From a phage: a stretch of 64,000 nucleotides of DNA. The DNA is taken from the sequence record PZ386955.1; one strand, written 5' to 3'. The notes under the pieces were generated by a model. The model did not search any database. It was not told the origin of the DNA and saw nothing but the letters and a program-made list of their open reading frames with translations. The position numbers and the translations under genes were made by a program. Below, piece by piece: positions 24,022-54,499 of the stretch; position 1 is the first letter of the stretch; each line of letters starts with the position of its first letter.

Positions 24022-24033
24022 TACACGGCAAAA

Positions 24034-24720: not shown

Positions 24721-24732
24721 TTAATTTTCTTA

Positions 24733-24760: not shown

Positions 24761-24807
24761 TTTATCACGTAGGGCAAATCATTTTAAACGGTAAACGAGG
24801 AATCACC

Positions 24808-32712: not shown

Positions 32713-32923
32713 AACGCACTTTATACATCCGTTTGATCCAAAGAACAAGGCGGTTATACACCGCCGTTGGACTGAAACGCGCATTACAAAATGTCCTGTG
32801 CCAGCAGCACAGGAATATAACAAAACATATAAAGCAGAATTTGTGGAGTACACCTTTGTAAATAACAAAGGGAAGGAGGTTTATGTTCCAGAATACTGCC
32901 TTTGGATAAAATGGGAGGAATAA
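32705..32923 (+). CDS. hypothetical protein
   Basis: 72 aa ORF. Confidence 0.5.
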   Translation: MSKTHFIHPFDPKNKAVIHRRWTETRITKCPVPAAQEYNKTYKAEFVEYTFVNNKGKEVYVPEYCLWIKWEE

Positions 32924-33090
32924 TGCAAACATTTTTTATCGACAAGTTCAATAAAAGTATGAACACGTGGATGGCAACATTCACTATGCAATTTGCGTCA
33001 TTTAAAGAAGCTCAAGAATGGTGCGATCAACACAAGGATTTTGATTTTTACTATCAAGTTAATGCAAATCTTTCTCCAGAGGAGAAATAA
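32923..33090 (+). CDS. hypothetical small protein
   Basis: Trimmed from 32902 to ATG in TAATG overlap after RBS GGGAGGAA. Confidence 0.45.
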   Translation: MQTFFIDKFNKSMNTWMATFTMQFASFKEAQEWCDQHKDFDFYYQVNANLSPEEK

Positions 33091-33091
33091 T

Positions 33092-33436
33092 ATGTTAGCT
33101 GATATTGAAATCCTTATGTACCGACAAGGTATGATCAAAATGTGGCTAGATTCTTTTAGCAACATCTACTGTACAGTGCGATCAGCAGACGAGCGTAAAA
33201 CGCTTATTTTATCTGCTATTGTTGATAAACAACGTTTCTTCAAAGAAATTTTGCAAACAGGCTTCTCCGATGCAGGAGTAGAGATTGCAACGCTTAGTCT
33301 TGGAGTGCTGTCTTACTTGGAATCCGTTGTTTTATATGTCTTCTCTTTAGAAGAACACTTGCAATTTGAAGCATTAAAACTTATCTTAGATGCTGCAATT
33401 GACATAGAACAAAATCGAATTGATTCTTTTGAATAA
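33092..33436 (+). CDS. hypothetical protein
   Basis: Trimmed from 32993 to ATG (MLADIE) after RBS AGAGGAGAAA. Confidence 0.5.
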   Translation: MLADIEILMYRQGMIKMWLDSFSNIYCTVRSADERKTLILSAIVDKQRFFKEILQTGFSDAGVEIATLSLGVLSYLESVVLYVFSLEEHLQFEALKLILDAAIDIEQNRIDSFE

Positions 33437-33452
33437 AAATAAGGAGGAAACT

Positions 33453-33911
33453 ATGCAAGAGGTTAAACATTATCCACATGGTCGTAGTTTTGTAGCTGTA
33501 TGGCATGTTCCTGCTCGTAATGAACTATTTTGCGCATCTTTTCATTACAAAGATGGACAATATTTCACCTATGACGAGACGATGGATGATTTTATCCCAG
33601 AGTGCGATCATGGGTATACACCAATGTTCTTTAAACGTATGAAAGCTCGTTTCTTCGTTACAGATGTTGATGGTGAACCTACTTGGCACATCGAAGAAGA
33701 TTGGCAAGATTCTGTGGATATTAAAGAAGCCCCAGAATGGGCTACATTACTGGTACACGTCAAAACCCCTACTCTTGACGTTATGGCGTGGGTTAATCAT
33801 GATGATACCCATTACCAATACATAAATGGTAGCACAGAGATTTCTGGTGAGATTATTGGTCGTTGGAAGCCTACGAATCAGGTTGCTATTGTCGGGTATA
33901 AGACAGTATAA
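33453..33911 (+). CDS. hypothetical protein
   Basis: Trimmed from 33420 (TTG) to ATG (MQEVKH) after RBS AAGGAGGAAA. Confidence 0.55.
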   Translation: MQEVKHYPHGRSFVAVWHVPARNELFCASFHYKDGQYFTYDETMDDFIPECDHGYTPMFFKRMKARFFVTDVDGEPTWHIEEDWQDSVDIKEAPEWATLLVHVKTPTLDVMAWVNHDDTHYQYINGSTEISGEIIGRWKPTNQVAIVGYKTV

Positions 33912-33912
33912 T

Positions 33913-34107
33913 ATGAAAAATAGTGTAGATTGGGATGATTTATCCGATTTTGAAAAATGGTTCTTAGGTAGTGGTTGTTATGCAGACGGGGATCTCGAAA
34001 GAGATCCTTCTGGAAACTACACTATGCCATTAACCCAAGGTTTTTATGAGTGCTGGTGCGCAGCACAAAACAACGTACTGAATAAGGAGACAACACAATG
34101 CAATTAA
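33913..34107 (+). CDS. hypothetical small protein
   Basis: Track ORF 33826..34107 overlaps upstream gene; trimmed to ATG (MKNSVD). Confidence 0.45.
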   Translation: MKNSVDWDDLSDFEKWFLGSGCYADGDLERDPSGNYTMPLTQGFYECWCAAQNNVLNKETTQCN

Positions 34108-34337
34108 ACATCGGACAACCAATTTTTGATGCAGATACTGGTCAATATGCAGTGATTGTTGCTCGTATGAGCGGTGATGACCTTATTGTTTCAGAACTAC
34201 TCGGATCAGATCCGCAACTCCGCGTAGTATGTGACCTATATCTTCGAGACGAAAGTGATCGCATTGCACTGAAAGAAGATGGTATGCTCTACTACACCTG
34301 GACTAGAGATCCTGGGGTAACGGAGGTAGAGGTATAA
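34098..34337 (+). CDS. hypothetical protein
   Basis: 79 aa, RBS AAGGAGA. Confidence 0.55.
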   Translation: MQLNIGQPIFDADTGQYAVIVARMSGDDLIVSELLGSDPQLRVVCDLYLRDESDRIALKEDGMLYYTWTRDPGVTEVEV

Positions 34338-34636
34338 TGGTAAGGAATAGGGGTTTACATAAAAGAAGACACCTTACTTACTGGCATCGTAAAGTACATG
34401 AACCTGTATCAAAGAAAGAATGGCAATATCTGCCTTATGGGAAGGAGCGAAGAAAGTATCTGTTAGCTCATTTAAGGGTACATGGTTCTCTTCCTGTTAA
34501 CAGTAAGTGGCAATTGCAAACAGCTTATGACGAAGATATGAAATATCTGTTAAAGAGAGGCATTATTTGCCTTGTTAAGATAGGGCGATGGAAATCTCGT
34601 CAATCTTATATCGTACTTAAACAGGAGAAACCATGA
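34337..34636 (+). CDS. hypothetical basic protein
   Basis: 99 aa, Lys/Arg-rich. Confidence 0.5.
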   Translation: MVRNRGLHKRRHLTYWHRKVHEPVSKKEWQYLPYGKERRKYLLAHLRVHGSLPVNSKWQLQTAYDEDMKYLLKRGIICLVKIGRWKSRQSYIVLKQEKP

Positions 34637-34884
34637 ATATCAAAGATGTTGTAGCATATGTAGAAGATGAAGTTAAAAACCATACAAGTTTACTGAAAGT
34701 AATGGTTGTGGTTAAAAATGGCATTGGACAAGTAAACGTACAACATGTCTTATCTGATACTGTATATAATGTGTTTGAATGTAAAGACACACCTCATGGA
34801 GTACGTGTGGTGTATATTGATAACAATTTCAAAGAGTGTGTGAGACATACCTTAGAAAATGAGCTAAGGATCACAATCTTATGA
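34633..34884 (+). CDS. hypothetical protein
   Basis: 83 aa, ATGA overlap. Confidence 0.5.
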   Translation: MNIKDVVAYVEDEVKNHTSLLKVMVVVKNGIGQVNVQHVLSDTVYNVFECKDTPHGVRVVYIDNNFKECVRHTLENELRITIL

Positions 34885-35054
34885 GTTATTATGTTGTACC
34901 CTATGCCAATAAGTGGAGAGTAAGAGAAACTTGTTTTCTATTCTCCTGGTGGGCTACGTTCGGAGATGGTTGTGGAAATGATACAGGGAAGCCTGTAGAG
35001 TACGACACAAAAGAAGAATGTGAACAGTGGATAAAATTAACACAAAGATGTTGA
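34881..35054 (+). CDS. hypothetical small protein (57 aa)
   Basis: Not in track; ATGA-coupled to upstream gene. Confidence 0.4.
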   Translation: MSYYVVPYANKWRVRETCFLFSWWATFGDGCGNDTGKPVEYDTKEECEQWIKLTQRC

Positions 35055-35080
35055 CACGATCTTAACTTCTTGTTAGTATC
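35051..35080 (+). promoter_or_regulatory. sigma70-like promoter with short inverted repeat
   Basis: TTGACA-N17-TAGTAT then TTAGTA...TACTAA, upstream of 35108. Confidence 0.5.
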
Positions 35081-35107
35081 AATGTGTACTAACGATAAGG
35101 AGGGTTT

Positions 35108-35332
35108 ATGAAGTCTGTAAACAAGTTGCAACAATTTTTGTTATCAACAGCAATCTTTTTGCTTTTGTTAATTGGTATTCTGTATGGTGCATCTAACTTA
35201 TACAATCTACATAATGATGTAGAACAGAATAAAGAGAAGTGCATCATTCTAAAACACAAGAAACAAGCAGAAGATTTCTTAAAGAATAAGTGTTACAACT
35301 ACATTGATTATGAGGAGACAAACAATGATTAA
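35108..35332 (+). CDS. membrane-anchored protein, paralog family B member 2
   Basis: RBS AAGGAGGG; TM segment; C-terminus KEKCIILKHKKQAEDFLKNKC. Confidence 0.55.
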   Translation: MKSVNKLQQFLLSTAIFLLLLIGILYGASNLYNLHNDVEQNKEKCIILKHKKQAEDFLKNKCYNYIDYEETNND

Positions 35333-35567
35333 AGAATTAGGTATGCGAGTATACAGTGAGTGGACTCCAAGCAATGGCCCAGGAGTTGTTGCAGCTAAAT
35401 GTATCAATGGTCGTATTGAGTACCTGGAAGGGTATGAAGATAATGAAGAGTTAGTAGATTATGCTAAATCTTTTATTGAAGATGATACAGACTTTATTGT
35501 ATTATATGATACAGGAGAGTTAGAGTATGGATATGATGGAGATGGGGATATCTTTGAACTTCAATAA
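35325..35567 (+). CDS. hypothetical acidic protein
   Basis: Trimmed from 35304 to ATG after RBS GAGGAG. Confidence 0.5.
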   Translation: MIKELGMRVYSEWTPSNGPGVVAAKCINGRIEYLEGYEDNEELVDYAKSFIEDDTDFIVLYDTGELEYGYDGDGDIFELQ

Positions 35568-35661
35568 GAGTAGTAAGTAAGGTATAAAGAGTATATAGTT
35601 AGTTATAGAGTTAGTAACATTACATATACTCTTTCCATGTATAACATGGAATATTCTCTAC

Positions 35662-35719
35662 CTCGCTATCGCTCGGTATATAAGATTAGGGTAGCATGTT
35701 TTTTACGAAAAGTAAAACT
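35662..35719. repeat. conserved ~60-bp intergenic element, copy B
   Basis: CTCGCTATCGCTCGG ... TTAGGGTAGCATGTTTTT ... GAAAAGTAAAACT; matches 7499-7559. Confidence 0.5.
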
Positions 35720-35774
35720 GTTTATACCGATTGATAGCAGGTTTTTAATAGATTCTATCTATGAGGAGTAGAAA

Positions 35775-35993
35775 GTGTACAAATTATATAAAGGAAAAGA
35801 TAAGTTTACGGGTAATACATCTGGTTTCTATGTAACACCACGTGGTGTTGCTGTGTTCGATTGGATCTCTGGTACGCCAGATCGTGAAATGATCTCTCTT
35901 GTAAAACTGTCAGAACAAGATTATACTTACGGTGACATTACAACATTCTATTCTCGTGCAGAAAATCCAAAACTGATTGCGGAGTGGGAATAA
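35775..35993 (+). CDS. hypothetical protein
   Basis: 72 aa, GTG start after RBS GAGGAG. Confidence 0.5.
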   Translation: MYKLYKGKDKFTGNTSGFYVTPRGVAVFDWISGTPDREMISLVKLSEQDYTYGDITTFYSRAENPKLIAEWE

Positions 35994-36256
35994 TGGTTAC
36001 ACGATATGATTTAGAGGTGTACAGCCAAGGTGCTGCTGGTCAATGTGATATTGTACCAGATCCAGAAGGGGATTATGTTCTTCTTGCTGATTACAATAAG
36101 CTAGAAGAAAGACTTCTGGCTGTGTATGCTAAAGAGAACAAAACAATCTGTCCTTATTGCAGTGGAATGGGTTGGGTTGTTGCAGATGTTGGACAAATGT
36201 ATGAATGTGTACCTTGTAAAACCACAGGATTTATTGAAAAGGATACTAACAAATGA
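35993..36256 (+). CDS. hypothetical Cys-containing protein
   Basis: Trimmed from 35984 to ATG in TAATG overlap; CPYCSG...CVPC motif. Confidence 0.5.
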   Translation: MVTRYDLEVYSQGAAGQCDIVPDPEGDYVLLADYNKLEERLLAVYAKENKTICPYCSGMGWVVADVGQMYECVPCKTTGFIEKDTNK

Positions 36257-36501
36257 CTGTAGCAGATAAAATGAGAGAACTGGCAGAAAACGCAGAACTT
36301 AACAAAGCAAAGGAGAGTCTACAAAGTATCTACTCGTATATTGAGAGAGCAGCTAAAGATGGAGACAGAGAAGTTGCTATCTACACGCTTTATCCAACTT
36401 TTGTAAAAGTTAACTTGGATGCTGAAGGTTTTTCAACTTTTATTGATACAGAAACATCTCATTACGATGAAAACTTTACTCGAATAGTTATTCGATGGTA
36501 A
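36253..36501 (+). CDS. hypothetical protein
   Basis: 82 aa, ATGA overlap. Confidence 0.5.
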   Translation: MTVADKMRELAENAELNKAKESLQSIYSYIERAAKDGDREVAIYTLYPTFVKVNLDAEGFSTFIDTETSHYDENFTRIVIRW

Positions 36502-36606
36502 ATTTCTGACATTTATGCGCCCTGGCTACCTGGGCGTAATAAATTCAGCTTATATTTGATCCGCGCCTTCGGCGCTTAGGCAAAGCCACGCCACATAGGA
36601 GAGTTT

Positions 36607-37017
36607 ATGTTCAAATGGTTAAAAGAGTTTCTAACATCTTTGGCAGAACCTAAGCAAGATGTTATTAAAAGCTCTATCACAGGAAAACCGCTTGTTATAG
36701 TTACAGGCGGCTTTGGTCATGGGTTTTCTCTTAAACAAACAGACATAGGTTTACAGGGATGTTTGATTAGTTTTAGAATCACTCAATTAGGAGATAATAG
36801 ACAAACAATCTTAGACCTTTTCAATGGGGAGTTTGATGATTATTTATCTAAGAGTGGTAAAGAACGTCTGATCGAACATATAAAACACCGCTATGAGCAT
36901 GGTGGTTACTACTTAGATACAAAACGTAATGCACAAGGTGATCTTGACATAGTTCGTATAGCGTGGGATAATGAATTTAAAACTAAACTTGGTAAACTTC
37001 TGGAGGAGTTATGGTAA
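36607..37017 (+). CDS. hypothetical protein
   Basis: 136 aa, RBS AGGAGAG; GC hairpin GCGCCTTCGGCGC upstream. Confidence 0.55.
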   Translation: MFKWLKEFLTSLAEPKQDVIKSSITGKPLVIVTGGFGHGFSLKQTDIGLQGCLISFRITQLGDNRQTILDLFNGEFDDYLSKSGKERLIEHIKHRYEHGGYYLDTKRNAQGDLDIVRIAWDNEFKTKLGKLLEELW

Positions 37018-37193
37018 ATATTAAAACAGGTGATATTGTACGTCTTGCCAGTGAAGAAATGTTAATGACTGTAATGGTATCTACCTATGATACTTGCGAA
37101 GTGGTATGGTTTGATGTTAATGAACAACTACAGAAAGCTACATTTGATAAACGTATGCTTCGTAAAGTTGAAGAAGTGAAGGAGGAAGAATAA
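37011..37193 (+). CDS. hypothetical protein
   Basis: 60 aa, RBS GGAGGAG. Confidence 0.45.
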   Translation: MVNIKTGDIVRLASEEMLMTVMVSTYDTCEVVWFDVNEQLQKATFDKRMLRKVEEVKEEE

Positions 37194-37194
37194 T

Positions 37195-37407
37195 ATGACA
37201 ATGTTGCTTCGTATGTTTGTGTTTCTTATGTTCTGGATTATCGTTGGTAACGGTATTGTGTTTTTGATTTTTCCTGAAGTAATGACAGGTAATGAAAATA
37301 AGGCAGTGCCTTACATTATGCTTATCGGTTACGGTATTGGTACACTTGGATTACTGTTTGCTGACTGGTTAGTCAATACTTTGTTCTCTAAGTACAGGAA
37401 CAACTAA
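37195..37407 (+). CDS. small membrane protein
   Basis: 70 aa, two hydrophobic helices. Confidence 0.5.
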   Translation: MTMLLRMFVFLMFWIIVGNGIVFLIFPEVMTGNENKAVPYIMLIGYGIGTLGLLFADWLVNTLFSKYRNN

Positions 37408-37408
37408 T

Positions 37409-37681
37409 ATGTCGGAAAAATTACCTAATGTTTTCTTTTGTTTTGTAGATTGTGTTACACAAGAAATTATAGTTGATGAAGAAGGTATGTTTACTTATTT
37501 TGCATCTGAAGAAGAGGCAAAACTATCAGCTATGAAATGTATAAGCCAATTGTCAGTACCTGCTGTCAACAGGTTCGGTATTGCACAGGTGTATAAAACA
37601 GTAACAGAGTTTACACCAGATCGAAAACTAACTTTTCTTAACGTTCACTTTGTTTGTAAGTTTAGTGAACTACGACATTAA
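37409..37681 (+). CDS. hypothetical protein
   Basis: 90 aa ORF. Confidence 0.5.
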   Translation: MSEKLPNVFFCFVDCVTQEIIVDEEGMFTYFASEEEAKLSAMKCISQLSVPAVNRFGIAQVYKTVTEFTPDRKLTFLNVHFVCKFSELRH

Positions 37682-37694
37682 AGCAGGAGTAAAA

Positions 37695-38294
37695 ATGAAA
37701 GAATATTGGAGTGGTGAGAAGGGCTTACTAAAGCCAGGAATGCTTTTGCGAGTAAAGAATATGTTGATCACACAAGATTACATAATGCCTAACCCTGGAG
37801 CATTAGTAGAATTCCTTACTGCGCGAGATCAACCTGGGGTTGGTGAAATGTGGATTGTAACGTGGATATCTCTCGATGGTAAATTGCGCGTTGCTCCTAT
37901 TGACCCAAAACACCTAGAATCTCCTTACGCCAGTATTGATCCTCGGATCATAGATTTGGCTAGAGTTTATAAAGCTCGGACTGGTGTAGAATTAAATGTG
38001 GAAATTTTAAATCAATGTATTGACTTCTTACCGGAAAAAGTGCATAATGCACAACAAGAAGGTAACGGTTTAGAAGTTGTTCTTCTTAATGATGGGATGT
38101 TCTCTGGTTTGGCATCCGTAGATTTTCCAATAACATTAAGATTGTTACCTGGAGAATATGTACTGGATGAAGATACTATTGCTATATCCTCTAAAATTTT
38201 AGAACTCATTCCAGGTGCAAGGTGTGTTGGTGATACATCTTCCTTGCTGTTTACTCTGAATGAAGAAGCCATTATAGTTAAAAAGGAGAAGTAA
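37695..38294 (+). CDS. hypothetical protein
   Basis: Trimmed from 37650 to ATG (MKEYWS) after RBS AGCAGGAG. Confidence 0.55.
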   Translation: MKEYWSGEKGLLKPGMLLRVKNMLITQDYIMPNPGALVEFLTARDQPGVGEMWIVTWISLDGKLRVAPIDPKHLESPYASIDPRIIDLARVYKARTGVELNVEILNQCIDFLPEKVHNAQQEGNGLEVVLLNDGMFSGLASVDFPITLRLLPGEYVLDEDTIAISSKILELIPGARCVGDTSSLLFTLNEEAIIVKKEK

Positions 38295-38449
38295 ATGATG
38301 ACGTTTATTGTTGGTGTTGTTGTTGGTTATTTTGGTCACAAGTACCAAGATGTTATCATCGCTAAAGTTGACGAAGTAATCGAAAAATTTAAACACTAAT
38401 TTTTAAAAGGCTGTACTGCTGTGCAGCCTATCTTTCAAAGGAGAGTAAA

Positions 38450-39548: not shown

Positions 39549-39625
39549 ATGACTTTACTAGAGAGTATCGTAGTGTTAATCATCTTTATCATTGTTGTCA
39601 TAGGATATTTTACAGAAGACTAAAA

Positions 39626-39655
39626 TAAAGCCCCTAGAAGCGATTCTAGGGGCTT
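39626..39655. terminator. bidirectional rho-independent terminator at convergence of plus and minus blocks
   Basis: AAAGCCCCTAGAAGCGATTCTAGGGGCTTTT with A/T runs on both sides. Confidence 0.6.
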
Positions 39656-39723
39656 TTGTTTGCATTAGATAGGGAAACGTATTACTAAAATAAAAAGTGC
39701 GTTAGAATGCGTTACAGGAGGTT

Positions 39724-39981
39724 TTAGGAATGCATAAAATCTTCTTCAGGGCAGGTTGAGAGATAAGAGATGCACGTTGGGACAACAACAACATTATCTT
39801 TAAGGTTTGCAACCAAGCCTTTTGTAATTCCAGCCACTGCCCCGTTAATATCTGCTTGACGGATACCAAAACCTTGTTGTGCGGATAGATAACAAAATCC
39901 CTCACCTTTCTGTTGATTATTATTGAAGTAATAAACGTAGTGCATCATAAAATGGTCTTTAACGATTTGTTCTGTGGTCAT
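39724..39981 (-). CDS. hypothetical protein
   Basis: 85 aa, RBS AGGAGAA; last gene of minus block. Confidence 0.5.
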   Translation of the reverse strand: MTTEQIVKDHFMMHYVYYFNNNQQKGEGFCYLSAQQGFGIRQADINGAVAGITKGLVANLKDNVVVVPTCISYLSTCPEEDFMHS

Positions 39982-39997: not shown

Positions 39998-40020
39998 AAA
40001 AAGGGGCTTTCGCCCCTTGG
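39998..40020 (-). terminator. rho-independent terminator after sirtuin gene
   Basis: Minus strand GGGGCGAAAGCCCC followed by TTTTTCTT. Confidence 0.6.
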
Positions 40021-40025
40021 TCAAG

Positions 40026-40838
40026 TTACTTAGTCAAATGATCTTCTATCATTTTTATGAAAGCAGGATTGCTAAAAGCATCTGCTGCCTTTTCTCTATA
40101 AACAAAGACTCCTCTATCTTCGTAAAGAAGAGTTTCTTCGTAATTAATTCCTGGGTTAACAACAATCATTTTTGTACCCATAGTAAGTGCAGGGAATAAT
40201 TCCCAATTAAAATTGATAACTTGGTTTGAACATCCTACTACAACAACCAAATCTTGCATGGTCAAAGTATCAAACAAGTGAGCCATATCTGCATACAAAG
40301 GTGCAGCCTCACCAAAAAATACAACATTAGGCTTCACCCAGTTATAATCATCTATGTTTATACTATTGTAACCAATGTCTACCAGTGTTTTGTAATCTCC
40401 AGGGTGCATACGGTAAACTACTTCAGGAAGATACCCGTGCACGTGAATAACAGAATCCCTGTCCACACCTGCTCGCTCTAGTAGATCATCAACGTTTGTT
40501 GTCAAGTTTACTACTTGGTTAGGATATTCCTTAAACCACTTTGCTATTTGAATATGTGCAGCATTAGGTTGTACATCTTTAAGCTCAACACGTCTTTTGT
40601 TATAAAATTCGTGTGTTTTGGCATACAAGTCCATACCGTTCTCGTCTACACCACCGACCACTGGAAGATCTGGAGATGTTCTCACACGATAACCTGCTTG
40701 GAAAGCTCCAATATCGCAGACCTCTTCTAAATCATATTCTTCCCACAAGGCACGACCACTATCTGTGTCTGTTCGGAATGTTCGAATCCCACTGTCTGCA
40801 CTTAAACCTGCGCCACTAACAAAAATTACTCTTCGCAT
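40026..40838 (-). CDS. Sir2-family (CobB-like) NAD-dependent protein deacylase homolog lacking the Zn-binding cysteines
   Basis: GAGLSADSGIRTFR, QPNAAH, TTNVDDLLERAG, HVHG, VVFFGE match sirtuin catalytic motifs; no CxxC...CxxC module. Confidence 0.75.
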   Translation of the reverse strand: MRRVIFVSGAGLSADSGIRTFRTDTDSGRALWEEYDLEEVCDIGAFQAGYRVRTSPDLPVVGGVDENGMDLYAKTHEFYNKRRVELKDVQPNAAHIQIAKWFKEYPNQVVNLTTNVDDLLERAGVDRDSVIHVHGYLPEVVYRMHPGDYKTLVDIGYNSINIDDYNWVKPNVVFFGEAAPLYADMAHLFDTLTMQDLVVVVGCSNQVINFNWELFPALTMGTKMIVVNPGINYEETLLYEDRGVFVYREKAADAFSNPAFIKMIEDHLTK

Positions 40839-41380
40839 TCAATATCCTCTTCGTAATCATCATCCCAAGAAGATGCGTCGTAACGCTCTTCCTCTTCGAA
40901 ATCCCAATTAATTTCTACTCCAAAATCTAAAAACAATTTAACAATGTTTTCTGTAGAGTAGTATTTATCATAAGCGTCAGCTAGTTCCCAATACTTGTCA
41001 CTCAATTTTTTATATTTAGGATCATTATAGTCATAATCTACTTTATAACCATAATCATACATCTCTTGTTCAGCTTTAAGCATAGCTTCTGGTGTAAGAA
41101 GATTAGGGAACGGACGATTTCTTTCTTTTAACTTAGAAACAATCCAGTTTGCAACATTTGCCACTTCACCATCTTGATTATCACCTAAACAACTTGCATA
41201 ATCTCCATCTTGGTAAGTGCCTAAATCCCCACAGACTTCATGTACAATAGATGAATACGATCCACACGTTTCACAATCTGAAAAAGTGTCTACTGTTGTA
41301 ATATCAATAGATAAAACTGGTAAAGCCATAGCTTCTTTCACACAAGCCTCCTCATATAATAACATATCATCAAAACCCAT
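40826..41380 (-). CDS. acidic Cys-containing hypothetical protein, translationally coupled to sirtuin gene
   Basis: Trimmed from track TTG start to ATG (MGFDDM) after RBS GGAGGA; overlaps sirtuin start by 13 nt; poly-acidic C-terminus. Confidence 0.55.
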   Translation of the reverse strand: MGFDDMLLYEEACVKEAMALPVLSIDITTVDTFSDCETCGSYSSIVHEVCGDLGTYQDGDYASCLGDNQDGEVANVANWIVSKLKERNRPFPNLLTPEAMLKAEQEMYDYGYKVDYDYNDPKYKKLSDKYWELADAYDKYYSTENIVKLFLDFGVEINWDFEEEERYDASSWDDDYEEDIECEE

Positions 41381-41397
41381 ATATCCTCCACACAAAT

Positions 41398-41463
41398 AAA
41401 GCCCCTGATTGGGGCTTTGGTTAAGTTTTACAGATTATACCAGACTTTTAAGGTACTTGTCAA
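41398..41463 (-). promoter_or_regulatory. promoter + stem-loop (PeSL-type) driving acidic-protein/sirtuin operon; hairpin also acts as upstream terminator
   Basis: Minus strand TTGACA-N18-TATAAT overlapping stop of upstream gene, then AAAGCCCC-AATCA-GGGGCTTT and RBS. Confidence 0.55.
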
Positions 41464-42043
41464 GGGCTTCTTGATCACCTTGACAAACATAGCAACGGAA
41501 GTCTTGAGCAGAAGGTTCTTTGTCCTCGTCCCAATCCCAATAAACAGTACCTTTATAACGTGAGCCTGGGAACTCGAAATATGCTGTATGAGTAATATGA
41601 TGTGGGCCACCCCAAAACTGTGTAAAAGTAAATTGAGGATACGCTGCTTTAACTGTATTTTCAAACCAAGTTTTACGATCTAATGCTTCGTTTATAAAAT
41701 AAGCATGGCGTTCCATTTCATCCCAGTTTTTCCAAACGCATTTTTCATCCAGAGAAAAAACAAAATCTTCACTGTTGAATTCATCTGTATCTTCCAAAAT
41801 ATCATAATCATGTGCACTAGGTATCCACCATCCAGCTTCTAATAGTGCTTTCACGGGTACAAAACCTTTTTCAGCATATTGATCAAATTCTTTTACTCTA
41901 CGTACAGTGCAGTATTCATCTTCACCACCAATGTCCAGTAGACAAGCACCTTTGCGTCTTGCTGCAAGACCATGTGTATCAAAAACTACAACACTACCTT
42001 CACCGTCTTCACGATCTACTTGATATGCAACTTTTTGAGTCAT
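41435..42043 (-). CDS. hypothetical protein
   Basis: 202 aa ORF. Confidence 0.55.
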   Translation of the reverse strand: MTQKVAYQVDREDGEGSVVVFDTHGLAARRKGACLLDIGGEDEYCTVRRVKEFDQYAEKGFVPVKALLEAGWWIPSAHDYDILEDTDEFNSEDFVFSLDEKCVWKNWDEMERHAYFINEALDRKTWFENTVKAAYPQFTFTQFWGGPHHITHTAYFEFPGSRYKGTVYWDWDEDKEPSAQDFRCYVCQGDQEALDKYLKSLV

Positions 42044-42044: not shown

Positions 42045-42167
42045 TTACCCCCAATGTATATGGGAAATTAACCAAAAGATAAATTCCCAAAAACACCAAC
42101 CAAGAAAAGTTAATGGAATTATAAAAGCTATCAGAGCAGTCTTCCAGCCTTTCCACAATGTTTCCAT
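42045..42167 (-). CDS. small membrane peptide (40 aa)
   Basis: Not in track; ATGA-coupled to dcm stop, RBS GGAGGAA; hydrophobic. Confidence 0.3.
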   Translation of the reverse strand: METLWKGWKTALIAFIIPLTFLGWCFWEFIFWLISHIHWG

Positions 42168-43156
42168 CATTCCTCCATACACTTAAGAATATGTGCAATG
42201 ACAGGTATAGTCCAACCATTACCTAACATCTTATATGCTTGTGTGTTACTACTCACTTTAAAGTAATCATCTGGAACACCTTGTAAGCGGCAACACTCTT
42301 TAACAGTTAACTTTCTATAATGCACGCCTTCACTCAATTTTTCAAAGGCATCCAGATATCTTCCAGGTGGAATGTAAGCTAATAGTACGTCTTTCGGCAC
42401 AGTCGTGAGGCAACGAGTTTTTTCACTGTCCTGAACTTCCAAGCAATGTACCAAACGATCAGTTTTAGATGTACTACGTTTGCCATTTTCATTAATTCTA
42501 CGCCCATATATTGCTGCTGGATAAAAAACCAGTTGTCTGCGACTCTTTTCAAAATACTGTTCTATATTACCACCTTTGGCATAATTTGCGTCTATGCAAT
42601 AAGCCTTATCTCTGTCTACAATACTGTCATCTTCAATGATATCTTGCAACACTTCATTGGTAATATCCCAAGGTTTTATTTCCCAATTGCACCAGTATAA
42701 ACGTTGTCTATTCTGTGCAGTGAAATCTGCGGAGTTAATGAATACGGGATTAACACCTAAGTAACTTGTGATCACATTTTCCCACTCCACCTTCATCTTA
42801 ACGTTTTCAAGCATGAACTTAACATTAGGGTTAAACTTTTTAATATGTTCAAGAATTTCAACATATTCAAAGAACAGTTTAGATCGCGGATCTTGAAAGT
42901 TCAAACCCTTACCAGAAGAAGAGAAGCCTTGGCACGGGCTACCACCTAACAAAAGATCAATTTCTCCCCACGGGATATTCCATTCTCTCCATTTTGTAAC
43001 ATCACCTAATTGAACAATATCTGGAAAATTGGCTTGGCTTTCAGCTATGGCAAATTTGTCCAACTCTGAAGCATAATACTTATCTACTTCAATACCTGCA
43101 CTTTTTAGTGCAAGCATTCCTCCTGACATACCATCAAAAAGACTTAAAACTTTCAT
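42167..43156 (-). CDS. DNA (cytosine-5)-methyltransferase
   Basis: Motif I LFDGMSGG, motif IV GGSPCQGFS, ENV motif MLENVKM. Confidence 0.8.
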   Translation of the reverse strand: MKVLSLFDGMSGGMLALKSAGIEVDKYYASELDKFAIAESQANFPDIVQLGDVTKWREWNIPWGEIDLLLGGSPCQGFSSSGKGLNFQDPRSKLFFEYVEILEHIKKFNPNVKFMLENVKMKVEWENVITSYLGVNPVFINSADFTAQNRQRLYWCNWEIKPWDITNEVLQDIIEDDSIVDRDKAYCIDANYAKGGNIEQYFEKSRRQLVFYPAAIYGRRINENGKRSTSKTDRLVHCLEVQDSEKTRCLTTVPKDVLLAYIPPGRYLDAFEKLSEGVHYRKLTVKECCRLQGVPDDYFKVSSNTQAYKMLGNGWTIPVIAHILKCMEE

Positions 43157-44999: not shown

Positions 45000-45320
45000 T
45001 TAACAAGTAATATTGGGAATAATACTGGGAGTAACAATTGGAGTAATAGGGTACGTAAACCAAGGGCTTCCAATTTCCCAAGGACTATAAGGTGTACGAG
45101 GATCAAATGGAGGCGTTACTTGAGGCTTTTTCCAAATCTCCGCTAGTTGTTTCTTCCATTTATCCCTTGCTGTATCGTTATCTTCATCCAACTGTTCGTC
45201 ATTATCTTTTATTTCTGATTTTGGAAATAAAAGCTCTTTGACTAACTCAACGTCTTCCGTTTCAATAGTAGTTTCTTTCGTAATATTCCCTACCGTCTCT
45301 TTAATTGTGACTTTATACAT
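45000..45320 (-). CDS. hypothetical protein
   Basis: 106 aa, Pro-rich C-terminus. Confidence 0.5.
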   Translation of the reverse strand: MYKVTIKETVGNITKETTIETEDVELVKELLFPKSEIKDNDEQLDEDNDTARDKWKKQLAEIWKKPQVTPPFDPRTPYSPWEIGSPWFTYPITPIVTPSIIPNITC

Positions 45321-46066
45321 TAGTCCTCCTCTAAAGTAGAATAAAATTGTAACGTATTTGAATCATCAAAATATGCAAAGGTTAAATTACCATTGAAGCA
45401 AGATCCTGTGTCCATATATACCCTATTACTGCTAATTACAGGTTTAGGAACATAAGAATGCCCGTGAAATACATAATCTACTCCTGAAACTCTAGGAAGA
45501 AGAATCCCTTCAAGGGCGCAATCTATCATATCACGATCCCACATTAAAGATTCTGTGAATCGAGATACTTGCTCTTTATTCATATTCAAACAAAATGGCA
45601 AAACTTCTGTCACTGGTAAATGTTCCAAAACTGAAGGATACCCACCGTGAATAAAGCCTAGTTTCATATCACGATAATTGACAACAAGTACAACAGGTAA
45701 ATCTTCTAGCATCAAAGCAAGAGCAGTTGCACCCTCTTCTCCACACTCGTCTAGAACTGTATGGCCTCCGTTCTGAAACCAACATTCGTAATATCGTCTA
45801 TCACCTTCTAGCAACCCTTTAATCATCATATCTTCATGATTTCCACGAATACCATAACGATTTAGCTTTCTGGTGAATTCAACAACACAACGAAAATTCT
45901 GCTTGCCGCGATCTGTAAGATCTCCTAAAGATACAACAACATCTTGATCTCGGATACCTAAAGTATTAACACCTTTCTGGTACAAATCAAAGCAACCATG
46001 TAAATCACCAATAATAAACAAGTCTTGATCATCTTTTACACTAATTTCTTGATATACTAGCATCAA
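45320..46066 (-). CDS. PPP-family Ser/Thr protein phosphatase (calcineurin-like metallophosphoesterase)
   Basis: GDLHGC, GDLTDRG, GNHE metallophosphatase motifs. Confidence 0.8.
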   Translation of the reverse strand: MMLVYQEISVKDDQDLFIIGDLHGCFDLYQKGVNTLGIRDQDVVVSLGDLTDRGKQNFRCVVEFTRKLNRYGIRGNHEDMMIKGLLEGDRRYYECWFQNGGHTVLDECGEEGATALALMLEDLPVVLVVNYRDMKLGFIHGGYPSVLEHLPVTEVLPFCLNMNKEQVSRFTESLMWDRDMIDCALEGILLPRVSGVDYVFHGHSYVPKPVISSNRVYMDTGSCFNGNLTFAYFDDSNTLQFYSTLEED

Positions 46067-47196: not shown

Positions 47197-47859
47197 TTAT
47201 TTAATATTCAATTTTGCACAAAGACGTTGTACCGCTTTGGCATCGAACAAACTCCCACGAATAGTTCTCTTTCCTGATTCATTCAGATGCTTTGCAATCG
47301 TCATATATGGCGTTTTACAAGCTCTGTATGCAACTAAAGAATCTTTTAAAGAAAGCGCAAACTCTTTTGAGCGTTTTGCTTCTTCCGTTTTCGTATAATC
47401 TGTTCTTTTGTATTTAGGGTTTGCTGCACCAAGAAGCGTTCCCTTCGCTTTTGCTACTTTAAGGCTCTTCTTAACACGATCAGATATTGCACGAGCCTCT
47501 TCTTCTGCCAGAACTGCTAAAATATTTATTATCATATTTTCAGCGGAGGGCATAGTTGCTATTCGTACATTAATCATCTCTAACAAGGTTGCAACAGAAG
47601 CTGTGTTACGTCCAAGACGGTCAACCTTAGCAACAACAAGTGTAGCACCTGTTTCTTTGCAAAGATTAACAGCTTTCACAAGCTCTCTACGTTGCTTCCA
47701 ATCGCCTTTACCCGAATAAAACTCTGCAAAGCTACCTACAATAGTATAATTTTCTTGTGAATCCAGGAAGCGTTGGATATCTGCTTCCTGTGATTCTATA
47801 CCATACTGGTTGCCTTGTTGTTTCTTCTTAGAAAGTCGATGATATAGTACAAACTTCAT
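47197..47859 (-). CDS. serine recombinase (resolvase/invertase family)
   Basis: N-terminal YHRLSKKKQQ..GIESQ catalytic-Ser region, VVAKVDRLGRN, C-terminal HTH-like tail. Confidence 0.7.
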   Translation of the reverse strand: MKFVLYHRLSKKKQQGNQYGIESQEADIQRFLDSQENYTIVGSFAEFYSGKGDWKQRRELVKAVNLCKETGATLVVAKVDRLGRNTASVATLLEMINVRIATMPSAENMIINILAVLAEEEARAISDRVKKSLKVAKAKGTLLGAANPKYKRTDYTKTEEAKRSKEFALSLKDSLVAYRACKTPYMTIAKHLNESGKRTIRGSLFDAKAVQRLCAKLNIK

Positions 47860-50512: not shown

Positions 50513-51265
50513 TTAATATACTTCCGTGATGAACTGAGACAAACGGGAACGTTGGTTATCAGCAGTTGTCATTTCAACATAACCAATAAAATCCACAATA
50601 GCTTCCCTTTCTCCTTCTTCATTAATAGGAACAACACGATCTAACAAATCACCTAAACCGTTAGCTCTTCGTTTAATTGCATATGTTTGATTAACATCAC
50701 CCATAATGACAATACGTGTATTAAGACCTGCTCGCTCAAGGAGAAGTTTTATTGTATTTGGTGACATAAGTTGAACTTCATCAATAAGAATAATGCTGTT
50801 ATCCCACGTAGCACCTAGTGCATAGTTTGGAATATTAAGTTCAATTTTGCCACTTGCAATATCGTTTTCCAATTTATTTGCAGTCATAAACTGTTGGAAA
50901 ATTCTTTTAGTTGATTCGTAGTGTGCTGCTAGTTTATCAGTCTTATCTCCAGATAAGAAACCAATTTGATCATCACCTACTTCTGTCGGGTTTTTAAGGA
51001 AAATCAACTTTCTGAAATCACCAGCTTTAAGCATTTGCAATGCTTTCCACAATGCTGTTGTCGTTTTTCCTGTTCCTGCTGGGGCATTAACAATGGTTAA
51101 ATCATTCCAAACCATGCTTCTTACAATAGCTTCTTGATTCCCAACAGGGGTAAATTCATCAAGACGGTAATCATCATTTCCTACTGCTTTAGCCGCATAA
51201 CGACTGGCACGTTTGTCATCATTGGCTGCTGATTGACGACGAGCCTTTGCGGTTTTGTTTCCCAT
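50513..51265 (-). CDS. phoH: PhoH-like ATPase
   Basis: Walker A NAPAGTGKTT and PhoH-like core. Confidence 0.8.
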   Translation of the reverse strand: MGNKTAKARRQSAANDDKRASRYAAKAVGNDDYRLDEFTPVGNQEAIVRSMVWNDLTIVNAPAGTGKTTTALWKALQMLKAGDFRKLIFLKNPTEVGDDQIGFLSGDKTDKLAAHYESTKRIFQQFMTANKLENDIASGKIELNIPNYALGATWDNSIILIDEVQLMSPNTIKLLLERAGLNTRIVIMGDVNQTYAIKRRANGLGDLLDRVVPINEEGEREAIVDFIGYVEMTTADNQRSRLSQFITEVY

Positions 51266-51280: not shown

Positions 51281-51303
51281 AAAAGGGGCTTTCGCCCCTT
51301 TGT
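51281..51303 (-). terminator. rho-independent terminator after lysozyme gene
   Basis: Minus strand GGGGCGAAAGCCCC followed by TTTTAT. Confidence 0.6.
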
Positions 51304-51964: not shown

Positions 51965-52231
51965 TTACTCCGCAATCTGAGCCATGAATTCACGTAGTTC
52001 GGAAAAACCTCCTACGTGGGTTAGATGTTCACCATCTTCCACAAAAATTTGAGGAAAGGTACGTGGCAGAACACCTGTTTTCTCTAAAACCAGATTCTGA
52101 ATCTGATCTAAAGAATAGTCTTCATCTAAGGTAAGATATTTAAAATCCTGTTCACGCTGTTCCAGTAGAATCTTAGCGTTAGTGCAGAAAGGACAATTTG
52201 GTTTACCGTAGATAATAAAATTCATTTTCAC
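51965..52231 (-). CDS. glutaredoxin (NrdC/NrdH-like)
   Basis: CPFC active site in YGKPNCPFCTNAK, ~88 aa. Confidence 0.8.
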   Translation of the reverse strand: MKMNFIIYGKPNCPFCTNAKILLEQREQDFKYLTLDEDYSLDQIQNLVLEKTGVLPRTFPQIFVEDGEHLTHVGGFSELREFMAQIAE

Positions 52232-53058: not shown

Positions 53059-53609
53059 AATATGATCTCCTTTAGTGTTTTGGCTTCCTGATCTTTTTGT
53101 GACAAGATAGGTTTAAAATTAATATCATTAAAGATTAAATCAAAACCCCAATCTATATTGATATCTGGATCATTCCACGCAAGACTACACTCTGAAGTCG
53201 GATCGTAATATTCTGTACATTTGTATTCAAAATCAGCAATATCACTAATCACAACAAAGCCATGAGCGAAACCAGGAGGAATCCAAAATTGTGTTTTATT
53301 CTTTTCAGATAAGAGAACACCTACCCATTCTCCAAATGTTGGACTACCAACCCTAATATCTACAGCAACATCATAAACTTCACCACGAACACAACGTACT
53401 AACTTCCCTTGTGGGTTTTTCTTTTGAAAATGAAGCCCACGTAGAACTCCTCGGATAGAACGTGAATGGTTATCTTGGACAAAGTTTTGTTTACCTATGT
53501 ATTGATCATATAAAGCCTGATTAAAACTTTCTAAGAAAAAGCCACGTTCATCTCCGTAAACGTCAGGTTGAATGATCAACAAATCTTCGATTTTTGTTGC
53601 TTGAATCAT
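53055..53609 (-). CDS. rmlC: dTDP-4-dehydrorhamnose 3,5-epimerase
   Basis: DERGFFLESF and RGLHFQ motifs, ~184 aa cupin. Confidence 0.8.
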   Translation of the reverse strand: MIQATKIEDLLIIQPDVYGDERGFFLESFNQALYDQYIGKQNFVQDNHSRSIRGVLRGLHFQKKNPQGKLVRCVRGEVYDVAVDIRVGSPTFGEWVGVLLSEKNKTQFWIPPGFAHGFVVISDIADFEYKCTEYYDPTSECSLAWNDPDINIDWGFDLIFNDINFKPILSQKDQEAKTLKEIIF

Positions 53610-53621
53610 TTAATTCCCCCT

Positions 53622-54491: not shown

Positions 54492-54499
54492 ACTCCTCC

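What the first reader, a model, noticed from the sequence alone, without database searches (positions are those of the whole stretch)
40026..41463. Self-contained cassette: acidic Cys-protein + Zn-less CobB-like sirtuin with own promoter, 5' hairpin and terminator
The 270-aa protein carries the sirtuin catalytic motifs (GAGxSxxSGIRTFR, TTNVDDLLERAG, HG) but lacks the four-Cys Zn module of canonical CobB. It is translationally coupled (13-nt overlap) to an upstream acidic protein containing CETCG, which might supply a metal site in trans. A near-consensus promoter, stem-loop and terminator bracket exactly these two genes, the layout of a mobile PeSL cassette. A phage-borne sirtuin could deacylate or ADP-ribosylate host proteins or alter NAD+ pools, which is relevant because many defence systems use Sir2 domains.
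Basis: partly seen in the sequence, partly recalled or inferred. Interest (0 to 1): 0.7.

Follow-up and report, generated by a model that had tools for sequence, protein, structure and literature searches.

The report
Known zinc-free phage sirtuin operon
This is the already-annotated Sir2-like gene of phi92-type coliphages, a zinc-free sirtuin family found in about a thousand phage genomes whose real job is still untested, sitting in a conserved early operon rather than in a mobile cassette.

Summary
The described sequence features are all real. On the minus strand there is a perfect sigma-70 promoter, a hairpin, a 184-aa acidic Cys protein, a 13-nt overlap, a 270-aa sirtuin with no Zn cysteines, and a terminator hairpin.

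The interpretation mostly fails.
- The window is a phi92-like phage (Justusliebigvirus), not a T4-type phage.
- The sirtuin is Phi92_gp038, the same family as T5.102 (PHROG 2162). It occurs in 984 phage records.
- Zinc loss in phage Sir2/CobB was published in 2016. The phage clade was described in 2022 and predicted to remove RNA 2'-phosphates in RNA repair.
- The acidic protein (gp039) is very unlikely to supply zinc. About 850 sirtuin-bearing phages lack it. Jumbo-phage homologues lie far from any sirtuin. An HNH gene separates the pair in phage FKP3. Its C-terminal Cys is forced by the overlapping sirtuin start codon.
- The block gp041-gp039-sirtuin-gp037, with its promoter and hairpins, is fixed across about 128 Stephanstirmvirinae genomes. 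It is a core locus, not a mobile cassette.

The enzyme looks active. Asn115, Asp117 and His134 are invariant, as is the class III Tyr-x-x-Arg motif. Its substrate is unknown: RNA 2'-phosphate and acyl-lysine are about equally plausible. Low novelty.

The parts
41434..41463 (-). Sigma-70 early promoter: -35 TTGACA (41463-41458), 18-nt spacer with TGn, -10 TATAAT (41439-41434). It lies inside the 3' end of gp041, and the gp041 TAA stop (41437-41435) is part of the -10 hexamer.
   Evidence: 12/12 consensus with TG. Three such sites in the window against 0.13 expected. TTGACA and TATAAT/TATAGT are conserved in five Stephanstirmvirinae relatives.
41398..41418 (-). Terminator-like hairpin AAAGCCCC-aauca-GGGGCUUU with a weak U-rich tail, about 15 nt downstream of the -10 hexamer. 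It could be the terminator or attenuator of gp041, and/or a 5' stem-loop of the gp039 mRNA.
   Evidence: -14.4 kcal/mol. The stem is kept in relatives despite loop changes, one extra pair and C-to-U (G-U) changes.
40826..41380 (-). gp039-like acidic protein: 184 aa, pI 4.05, Phi92_gp039, PHROG 9509. GGAGG ribosome-binding site at 41389-41385. Invariant C36-x-x-C39-G and C64. Disordered acidic tail. Function unknown.
40826..40838 (-). 13-nt overlap of the gp039 stop and the sirtuin start. The sirtuin ATG sits inside the gp039 codons GAA-TGC (Glu-Cys), and the sirtuin ribosome-binding site (GAAGAGGA) is encoded by the Glu-rich tail.
   Evidence: Same arrangement with a 16-nt overlap in phAPEC8, ESCO5 and phiWec186. 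The C-terminal Cys is absent in the non-overlapping Erwinia homologue.
40026..40838 (-). Zn-free phage-clade sirtuin: 270 aa, Phi92_gp038, PHROG 2162. GAGxSxxSGIxxFR, Y79-x-x-R82, T113-T-N115-V-D117, H134-G, FFGE, GCS.
   Evidence: AF2 pLDDT 89.7. Best PDB match E. coli CobB, E=3e-17, TM 0.85.
40001..40018 (-). Intrinsic-terminator-like hairpin AAGGGGC-GAAA-GCCCCUU followed by UUUCUUAU. It is probably leaky, because gp037 follows without a promoter.
   Evidence: z=-2.4. Conserved in Phapecoctavirus with the loop changed from GAAA to UUCG or UACG. An identical 18-mer occurs at 51283-51300.
39724..39981 (-). gp037-like 85-aa protein (PHROG 15991, unknown function). AGGAG ribosome-binding site at 39992-39988. 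Likely the third gene of the same transcription unit.
   Evidence: Syntenic downstream of the sirtuin in phAPEC8, KKP3954, ESCO5 and phiWec186.
39627..39656 (.). Strong bidirectional terminator (13-bp stem) that ends the unit. It shares AAATAAAGCCCCT...GGGGCTTT arms with the 5' hairpin at 41394-41422.
   Evidence: These are the only two AAGCCCC...GGGGCTT hairpins in the 64-kb window.
41435..42043 (-). gp041-like 202-aa protein (PHROG 8514, unknown function). Conserved upstream neighbour whose 3' end carries the promoter.

Best explanation
The locus is the conserved early operon gp039-gp038-gp037 of a phi92-like coliphage (Justusliebigvirus).

Identity of the enzyme. gp038 belongs to the known phage-specific sirtuin clade (T5.102, rV5, Mydo, KVP40 type; PHROG 2162). 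It is a CobB/SIRT5-like (class III-derived) enzyme. It keeps the three-stranded small domain but has lost all four Zn cysteines, so it folds without metal and needs no partner for that.

Expression (inferred). Host RNA polymerase transcribes the unit early from a consensus sigma-70 promoter. The hairpins act as attenuators or RNA stabilisers. Start/stop overlap couples sirtuin translation to gp039.

Chemistry (inferred from invariant residues). NAD+ binds the GAGxS/GCS/N228 Rossmann site. An anionic substrate group held by Tyr79/Arg82 attacks C1' of the nicotinamide ribose, releasing nicotinamide. His134 then activates the ribose 2'-OH to resolve the adduct.

Substrate (not shown). I favour, narrowly, the published prediction that the substrate is an RNA 2'-phosphate left at repaired tRNA/RNA junctions. 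That is a Tpt1/KptA-like reaction giving ADP-ribose 1'',2''-cyclic phosphate. It would work with the phage's RNA ligase, cREC, P-loop kinase, phosphoesterase and MazG genes, which lie about 27-33 kb away in the same genome.

gp039 is an unrelated-fold, phage-only acidic 3-Cys protein of unknown role. It is not a zinc donor.

Confidence split: identity, Zn-free state and non-mobile core status about 0.9. RNA 2'-phosphate substrate about 0.35.
For: Identity.
- 99.5% DNA identity to Justusliebigvirus genomes that annotate a Sir2 gene here.
- PHROG 2162 E=2e-105 over the full length.
- 984 phage records carry a homologue.

Active enzyme.
- G9-A-G-x-S13, F21, R22, Y79, R82, N115, D117, H134-G135, F174-F-x-E177, G202, S204 and N228 are invariant in 39 diverse homologues.
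- By my residue count from H147 and I131, Y79 and R82 align with CobB Y92 and R95. These correspond to SIRT5 Y102/R105 (established knowledge).

Fold.
- AF2 pLDDT 89.7, and about 95 across residues 131-170.
- Best PDB matches are E. coli CobB, then Sir2Af1, then SIRT5.

Zn-free clade.
- No Cys in the module in T5, FV3, Mydo, the Vibrio phage R11Z or the jumbo phage Turkey5.
- Zinc loss in phage Sir2 was reported earlier (PMC5107563).
- Across 150 representatives, the Q-to-T change in TQNxD goes with Cys loss (26/33 against 10/84, Fisher p=7e-12).

RNA-repair link.
- The published neighbourhood analysis (PMC9503650) was re-checked here. FV3 has RnlA-cREC-Sir2-MazG plus a kinase and a phosphoesterase. 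Mydo has phosphoesterase-Rnl-cREC-kinase-Sir2.
- Turkey5 has Sir2-NUDIX.
- All five partner genes are present in Justusliebigvirus VEcB on the same strand.

Core locus.
- Synteny and regulatory signals are conserved in both genera.
- Counts of gp041, gp039 and sirtuin records agree.
Against: - No experiment on any member of this clade was found in the paper library.
- In this phage the sirtuin is not adjacent to the RNA-repair genes. The nearest lies about 27 kb away, outside the window.
- In T5 the only nearby candidate RNA-repair gene is a HAD-motif protein (T5.105), and no RNA ligase lies within 5 kb of the sirtuin.
- All the conserved residues fit an ordinary acyl-lysine deacylase equally well, and the nearest solved relatives are deacylases.
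- E. coli already has KptA (own knowledge), so a phage copy of that activity is not obviously needed.
- Gene neighbourhood is weak evidence in densely packed phage early regions.
Confidence: 0.5

Rival explanations
1. gp038 is an ordinary NAD+-dependent protein lysine deacylase (deacetylase or desuccinylase, like CobB/SIRT5). It is made early to strip acyl marks from host or phage proteins, for example to activate acetyl-CoA synthetase or to reprogramme metabolism and transcription.
For: - Closest sequence and structure relatives are CobB, Sir2Af1 and SIRT5.
- The full catalytic set and the FGE loop are conserved.
- The Tyr-x-x-Arg motif that reads succinyl/malonyl groups in class III sirtuins is invariant.
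- This role was proposed for the Vibrio phage homologue (PMC5107563).
- The small-domain beta-sheet is retained in the model.
Against: - The clade differs from canonical deacylases at several substrate-facing motifs: no Zn cysteines, TQNxD to TTNVD, GTS to GCS, VYP to VINF, and Ala to Cys41 in the acyl pocket.
- It scores far below every NCBIfam CobB cutoff (106 against 243 bits at best).
- It is repeatedly adjacent to RNA-end-processing genes in other phage groups (PMC9503650).
- The host already has CobB.
Confidence: 0.3
2. gp038 is an NAD+-consuming effector of another kind. It could be a protein or nucleic-acid ADP-ribosyltransferase, or an NADase that takes over the host, excludes other phages, or interferes with NAD-based defence signalling.
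For: - Sirtuin folds do all these reactions (PMC9503650).
- It is expressed early from a host-type promoter.
- NAD+ salvage genes lie near the sirtuin in Mydo.
- The phi92 annotation calls it a 'Sir2-like transferase'.
Against: - No match to any defence-type Sir2 model in PADLOC (best E=0.0066, a 36-residue stretch).
- No defence Sir2 structures appear among the top 50 PDB matches.
- No macrodomain partner as in SirTM systems.
- An unregulated NADase would harm a phage that needs NAD+.
Confidence: 0.15
3. One reading: gp039 and gp038 form an obligate two-subunit enzyme in which the acidic Cys protein supplies the missing metal site, or otherwise regulates the sirtuin. The pair travels as a self-contained mobile PeSL-type cassette.
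For: - Start/stop overlap is conserved in both genera.
- gp039 has three invariant Cys, including a CxxC knuckle.
- The promoter, hairpin and ribosome-binding site form a composite of the PeSL type.
- The two AAGCCCC...GGGGCTT hairpins of the window flank the unit.
- Sirtuin alleles have been exchanged between genera.
Against: - About 850 of 984 sirtuin-bearing phage records lack gp039.
- The Erwinia jumbo-phage gp039 homologue has no sirtuin within 25 kb.
- An HNH gene separates the pair in FKP3.
- A 97%-identical sirtuin sits beside a 38%-identical gp039 in some genomes, so the exchanged unit is the sirtuin or part of it, not the pair.
- C182 conservation is explained by the overlapping ATG.
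- The sirtuin small domain is modelled confidently on its own.
- The locus is fixed in about 128 genomes.
- The flanking hairpins are not alike in phAPEC8.
- Complex prediction could not be run.
Confidence: 0.07

Closest known systems
Phage-specific sirtuin clade (T5.102, rV5/FV3 Sir2-like, Mydo gp165, KVP40/phiSt2 Sir2/CobB; PHROG 2162; the 'distinct clade' of Iyer et al. 2022, PMC9503650)
   Same: - Full-length homology: 48-62% identity to the T5-like, rV5-like and Mydo-like proteins, 38-42% to the Vibrio phage proteins.
- Same Zn-free small domain.
- Same TTNVD, GCS, VINF and EVC motifs.
- Single-domain protein of about 250-280 aa.
   Different: - Here the gene is not next to the RNA ligase, cREC, kinase or MazG genes, which lie about 27-33 kb away.
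- Instead it is translationally coupled to gp039.
- It carries a roughly 25-residue variable insert (about residues 47-71) that the Mydo/rV5-type proteins lack.
E. coli CobB / class III sirtuins (Sir2Af1, SIRT5)
   Same: - Best sequence match (E=1.3e-18) and best fold match (TM 0.85).
- Same catalytic Asn/Asp/His, FGE loop and Tyr-x-x-Arg acyl-carboxylate motif.
   Different: - No Zn cysteines.
- Gln to Thr in TQNID.
- GTS to GCS, VYP to VINF, and Ala76 to Cys41.
- A 4-residue longer cofactor loop.
- Far below the NCBIfam CobB cutoffs.
Tpt1/KptA RNA 2'-phosphotransferase
   Same: Proposed functional analogy only. Both use NAD+. A substrate oxygen attacks C1'', and the ribose 2''-OH then resolves the adduct. 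Both are associated with RNA ligase, kinase and cyclic-phosphodiesterase genes (PMC9503650; established Tpt1 mechanism).
   Different: Unrelated fold: Tpt1 is an ART-superfamily protein and this is a Rossmann sirtuin. No biochemical evidence exists for the sirtuin.
PeSL composite promoter/stem-loop cassettes of T4-type phages (Arbiol et al. 2010, PMC2839356)
   Same: Upstream stop codon, consensus sigma-70 promoter, GC stem-loop, ribosome-binding site and start codon packed into about 85 nt. In PeSLs the stem-loop is a terminator/attenuator.
   Different: - Not a T4-type phage.
- The promoter sequence is not part of a repeated family.
- No insertion/deletion polymorphism at this site in about 128 relatives.
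- Genuinely repeated promoter-hairpin modules of this phage lie elsewhere (17.0-24.8 kb) and use a different hairpin.

Membership tests
SIR2 superfamily (Pfam PF02146) | Profile match above the gathering score, and a Rossmann sirtuin fold | tested here: met
   81 bits against a cutoff of 24. Foldseek E=3e-17, TM 0.85 to CobB.
SIR2 superfamily (Pfam PF02146) | Catalytic His, plus Asn/Asp of the QNxD motif and the GAGxS NAD loop | tested here: met
   H134, N115, D117 and G9-A-G-x-S13 are invariant in 39 homologues. Gln of QNxD is replaced by Thr.
Canonical sirtuin deacylases (classes I-IV, U) | Four-Cys structural Zn module in the small domain | tested here: not met
   No Cys between H134 and K169. 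This holds in all phage-clade sequences aligned.
CobB equivalogs (NCBIfam NF040867, NF001755, NF001753) | Score at or above the curated cutoff | tested here: not met
   Best score 106.2 bits against a cutoff of 243.
Class III sirtuins (SIRT5/CobB type) | Tyr-x-x-Arg acidic-acyl recognition motif in the FYxxRR helix | tested here: met
   Y79 and R82 are invariant and align with CobB Y92 and R95.
Phage sirtuin clade (PHROG 2162; Iyer et al. 2022) | Full-length profile match, and occurrence in tailed phages of Proteobacteria | tested here: met
   E=2.2e-105 over residues 1-269. 984 phage records.
Phage sirtuin clade (PHROG 2162; Iyer et al. 2022) | Conserved neighbourhood with RNA-end-repair genes (RNA ligase, cREC, kinase, MazG, 2H, Nudix, HAD) | tested here: inconclusive
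   Adjacent in FV3, Mydo and Turkey5. In this phage the genes exist but lie about 27-33 kb away, outside the window.
Defence-associated Sir2 NADases (ThsA, DSR, Sir2-HerA, SPARSA etc.) | Match to defence Sir2 profiles, and fusion or linkage to sensor domains | tested here: not met
   The only PADLOC hit is E=0.0066 over 36 residues. Single-domain protein. No defence Sir2 among the top PDB matches.
SirTM ADP-ribosylating sirtuins | Operon with a macrodomain protein | tested here: not met
   No macrodomain in any of the 24 neighbouring ORFs scanned against Pfam.
PeSL cassettes (T4-type phages) | Composite of a consensus sigma-70 promoter plus a stem-loop between stop and start codons | tested here: met
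   Definition taken from PMC2839356.
PeSL cassettes (T4-type phages) | Member of a repeated sequence family that marks insertion/deletion or replacement junctions between close relatives in T4-like hyperplastic regions | tested here: not met
   phi92-like phage. The site is conserved in both genera. Only the hairpin arms recur once, at 39623-39660.
Tpt1/KptA RNA 2'-phosphotransferase | NAD+-dependent removal of an RNA 2'-phosphate | not testable with these tools
   Needs an enzyme assay. Only contextual inference is available (PMC9503650).

The most novel reading that the evidence does not exclude
The Zn-free phage sirtuin is a sirtuin-fold analogue of Tpt1. It would remove the 2'-phosphate left when the phage's cREC (cyclic phosphodiesterase), P-loop kinase and RnlA-type ligase reseal host-cleaved tRNAs. 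Tyr79/Arg82 would be repurposed from binding a succinyl carboxylate to binding the phosphate. It would be the first sirtuin shown to act on RNA. The idea is published as a prediction (Iyer et al. 2022) and remains untested. In phi92-like phages, gp039 could be an added clade-specific modulator.
Probability: 0.3. Interest if true: 0.7.

Novelty: already known. Interest (0 to 1): 0.22.

Why it matters
This locus adds little by itself. The gene is annotated in about a thousand phage genomes, and both its zinc-free state and its clade have been described before.

The wider question is still open and worthwhile. An abundant, strictly phage-borne sirtuin family with an intact active site has never been assayed. 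Showing what it does with NAD+ (RNA 2'-phosphate removal, deacylation or ADP-ribosylation) would fill a gap in how T5-, rV5- and phi92-type phages handle host RNA damage or NAD-centred defence.

Three practical points from this analysis would help whoever takes the family to the bench:
- The enzyme needs no zinc partner.
- The Q-to-T change goes with Zn loss.
- Tyr-x-x-Arg is invariant.

Tried and rejected
3. A search for RNA-repair genes in the window by tblastn found none. They turned up only in the full genome of a close relative.
4. A check of whether jumbo-phage gp039 homologues sit near a sirtuin found none within 25 kb.
5. Domain fusions were examined as function hints. Long relatives carry WG repeats, RHS repeats, GIY-YIG or a second sirtuin domain. 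All belong to the Zn-containing TQN sister group and say nothing about the phage clade.
6. Five literature searches for experimental work on phage sirtuins found only predictions and one transcript-level study.
7. A T4-type origin of the window was rejected on 99.5% identity to Justusliebigvirus.
8. Treating C182 of gp039 as a fourth metal ligand was rejected after reading the overlapping frames.
Full report
**What is there.** The window is 99.5% identical over this region to Escherichia phage VivaForever and 98-99% identical to many other Justusliebigvirus genomes (Stephanstirmvirinae, phi92-like myoviruses). These genomes annotate the same genes as Phi92_gp037, gp038 ('putative Sir2-like transferase' or 'Sir2 NAD-dependent deacetylase'), gp039 and gp041. 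All genes lie on the minus strand.
- Sirtuin ORF: 40026-40838, 270 aa.
- Acidic ORF: 40826-41380, 184 aa from the ATG behind a GGAGG site. pI 4.05, 46 Asp+Glu.
- Overlap between the two: 13 nt.
- Promoter: TTGACA, 18-nt spacer, TGgTATAAT at 41463..41434, a 12/12 match. Three such sites occur in the window against 0.13 expected from 300 Markov-1 simulations.
- Hairpins: 41418..41398 and 40018..40001.

The promoter sits inside the end of gp041, whose TAA stop is part of the -10 hexamer. And the downstream gene gp037 (39724-39981) begins 20 nt after the 3' hairpin, has its own AGGAG site and has no promoter. The transcription unit thus most likely has three genes and ends at the 13-bp bidirectional terminator at 39627-39656.

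**The sirtuin.** It matches Pfam SIR2 (E=1.3e-22) and PHROG 2162 over its full length (E=2e-105). It falls far below every NCBIfam CobB cutoff (best 106 bits against 243) and has no meaningful PADLOC defence-Sir2 match.
- Relatives. The best solved relative by sequence is E. coli CobB (1S5P, E=1.3e-18). An AlphaFold model built on 39 homologues is confident (pLDDT 89.7, pTM 0.87). It matches CobB first (E=3e-17, TM 0.85), then Sir2Af1 and SIRT5. No defence sirtuin appears among the top 50.
- Invariant residues. In the 39-sequence alignment these are the NAD loop GAGxS...SG..FR, Y79 and R82, N115, D117, H134-G135, the FFGE loop, G202/S204 and N228. Counting residues back from CobB H147 and I131, phage Y79/R82 correspond to CobB Y92/R95. 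That is the class III Tyr-x-x-Arg motif, which in SIRT5 and CobB binds the carboxylate of succinyl or malonyl groups (alignment; role from established knowledge).
- Conclusion. The enzyme therefore looks catalytically competent, and its substrate probably carries a negative charge.

**Zinc.** There is no cysteine between H134 and K169, where CobB has its ligands. The only cysteines are C41 and C203. C41 is invariant and aligns with CobB Ala76 in the acyl pocket. C203 gives GCS in place of GTS.
- The same holds for T5.102, FV3, Mydo, the Vibrio phage R11Z (42% identity) and the jumbo phage Turkey5 (31%). The whole phage clade is Zn-free.
- The region is nevertheless modelled as a beta-hairpin sheet at pLDDT about 95.
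- This is not new. Skliros et al. 2016 reported the absent zinc site in the Sir2/CobB of Vibrio phages phiSt2, phiGrn1 and KVP40, and noted homologues in T5 and others (PMC5107563).
- An added detail comes from 150 representatives at 50% identity. Thr in place of Gln in TQNxD goes with loss of the cysteines (26 of 33 against 10 of 84, Fisher p=7e-12). The Zn-containing sister group keeps the same 'IGY' hairpin motif.

**Distribution and prior description.** tblastn finds the sirtuin in 984 phage records: T5-like, rV5-like, Mydo-like and phi92-like phages, Klebsiella siphophages, and Vibrio and enterobacterial jumbo phages. There are 1162 clusters in the large protein database, with phage-sized contigs among the best 120 listed.
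- Iyer et al. [quoted passage not shown] From gene neighbourhoods they predicted that it acts like KptA/Tpt1 on RNA 2'-phosphates during RNA repair (PMC9503650).
- I re-checked those neighbourhoods. In FV3 the order is RNA ligase, cREC-like protein, Sir2, MazG, with a P-loop kinase and a phosphoesterase alongside. In Mydo it is phosphoesterase, RNA ligase, cREC, kinase, Sir2, DNA ligase. In Turkey5 a NUDIX gene follows Sir2.
- None of these partners is in the present window. All five are encoded on the same strand in the 98%-identical VEcB genome, about 27-33 kb from the sirtuin. That places them 4-9.5 kb beyond the right end of the window.
- No experimental characterisation of any clade member turned up.

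**The acidic neighbour.** gp039 is narrowly distributed. It occurs in 134 phage records, essentially Stephanstirmvirinae plus a few Erwinia jumbo phages, and forms six clusters in the large database.
- Conservation. Invariant features are SDCETCG, GDLG, C64 and a C-terminal Glu-Cys.
- The C-terminal Cys. Reading the two frames shows that the sirtuin ATG lies inside the gp039 codons GAA-TGC, and that the Glu-rich tail encodes the sirtuin ribosome-binding site. This holds here and in phAPEC8. The Erwinia homologue does not overlap a sirtuin. It keeps C36, C39 and C64 but lacks the terminal Cys. Only three cysteines are therefore independently conserved.
- Evidence against an obligate partnership. 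About 850 sirtuin-bearing phage records lack gp039. The Erwinia homologue has no sirtuin within 25 kb. Klebsiella phage FKP3 has an HNH endonuclease gene between the two genes. Several Phapecoctavirus genomes carry a sirtuin 97% identical to this one beside a gp039 only 38% identical.
- Evidence for some link. The start/stop overlap is kept in both genera.

**Cassette or core?** In phAPEC8, KKP3954, ESCO5 and phiWec186 the order is the same: gp041, promoter, hairpin, gp039, sirtuin, hairpin, gp037.
- The TTGACA box is invariant and the -10 is TATAAT or TATAGT.
- The 5' hairpin keeps its stem through loop changes, an extra pair and G-U changes.
- The 3' hairpin keeps its stem with the loop switching among GAAA, UUCG and UACG.
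- Record counts also agree: gp041 is in about 129 records at 60% identity or more, and gp039 in about 128 once the Erwinia hits are set aside. The sirtuin is present in all the Stephanstirmvirinae genomes examined.

This is a fixed subfamily locus. PeSLs are defined as repeated promoter/stem-loop elements that mark insertion/deletion junctions in T4-type hyperplastic regions (PMC2839356). The composite architecture here resembles one, but the repeated-family and junction criteria are not met.

Two residual oddities remain. The only two AAGCCCC...GGGGCTT hairpins in the window flank the three-gene unit, although they are not alike in phAPEC8. And sirtuin alleles have clearly recombined between genera.

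**Mechanism.**
- Shown: the fold, the intact NAD+ and catalytic residues, the zinc-free small domain, and the regulatory signals and their conservation.
- Inferred: early transcription by host RNA polymerase; attenuation or stabilisation by the hairpins; coupled translation; and nucleophilic attack on NAD+ C1' by an anionic group held by Tyr79/Arg82, resolved through the His134-activated 2'-OH.
- Substrate: two candidates fit this chemistry, an RNA 2'-phosphate and an acidic acyl-lysine. The Tpt1 reaction runs through the same two steps, by established mechanism.

**Verdict.** The features are real, but this is a known gene family and the main interpretive claims are not supported. Novelty: already known. 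Interest is low (0.22). It would rise only through biochemical proof of the RNA-directed activity.

Noticed in passing
window 17068-24761, + strand: A series of promoters matching sigma-70 consensus at 11/12 or better (17068, 17780, 18198, 18516, 21536, 22475, 23550, 24733). Most of them are followed about 10 nt after the -10 by a conserved GC hairpin (GGGCGGGAAATGGTTTCCCGCC or GGGCGGCAATAGTGCCGCTC), an AAGAG-type ribosome-binding site and an ATGGC start. This is a genuinely repeated promoter plus 5'-stem-loop module for short early genes, and the closest thing in this phage to T4-type PeSLs.
   Followed up: partly
window 40001-40018 and 51283-51300: An identical 18-nt hairpin, AAGGGGCTTTCGCCCCTT, occurs twice: after the sirtuin, and between the lysozyme and PhoH genes. 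No such match is expected by chance.
   Followed up: partly
window 39623-39660 and 41394-41422: The two hairpins flanking gp039-sirtuin-gp037 share a 13-nt identical arm (AAATAAAGCCCCT) and GGGGCTTTnGTT. They are the only AAGCCCC...GGGGCTT hairpins in the window. This may be a recombination footprint or chance. They are not alike in phAPEC8.
   Followed up: partly
L010 (Justusliebigvirus VEcB, OZ035773) 32848-38331, i.e. 4-9.5 kb beyond the right end of the window: RNA-repair gene block on the same strand as the sirtuin: a cREC-like protein, a calcineurin-type phosphoesterase, an RnlA-type RNA ligase, a P-loop kinase and a MazG-like pyrophosphatase. All are homologous to the genes that flank the sirtuin in FV3 and Mydo.
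   Followed up: yes
L014 (Klebsiella phage FKP3) 2046-2696: An HNH homing-endonuclease gene is inserted exactly between the gp039 homologue and the sirtuin, overlapping both.
   Followed up: partly
OR062526.1 17981-19263; MG065650.1 37297-38579: These Phapecoctavirus-type genomes carry a sirtuin 97% identical to the window's beside a gp039 only 38% identical. Some database sirtuins (P0016, P0020) look chimeric within the gene. This points to inter-genus recombination at or inside the sirtuin gene.
   Followed up: partly
window 52228-55489, - strand: Four genes matching RmlD, RmlC, RmlA and RmlB (dTDP-rhamnose synthesis; Pfam E-values from 1e-72 to 1e-82) in a lytic phage. They may serve DNA or surface sugar modification.
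   Followed up: no
window 47197-47859, - strand: A serine recombinase (resolvase N-terminal domain, E=8e-22) encoded in a virulent-type phage.
   Followed up: no
window 42167-43156, 45320-46066, 50513-51265, - strand: A C5 DNA methyltransferase sits two genes upstream of gp039. A calcineurin-like phosphoesterase and a PhoH-like ATPase lie further upstream. PhoH is also near the sirtuin in T5 and Turkey5.
   Followed up: partly
MG065645, MG065650, MG065639 etc.: Records labelled 'Campylobacter phage' (host C. jejuni) are 94-99% identical to E. coli Stephanstirmvirinae at this locus. The host labels look doubtful.
   Followed up: no
P0127-P0276: Across sirtuin representatives, Thr in place of Gln in the TQNxD motif is strongly associated with loss of the Zn cysteines (Fisher p=7e-12). 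The reason for the coupling is unknown.
   Followed up: partly
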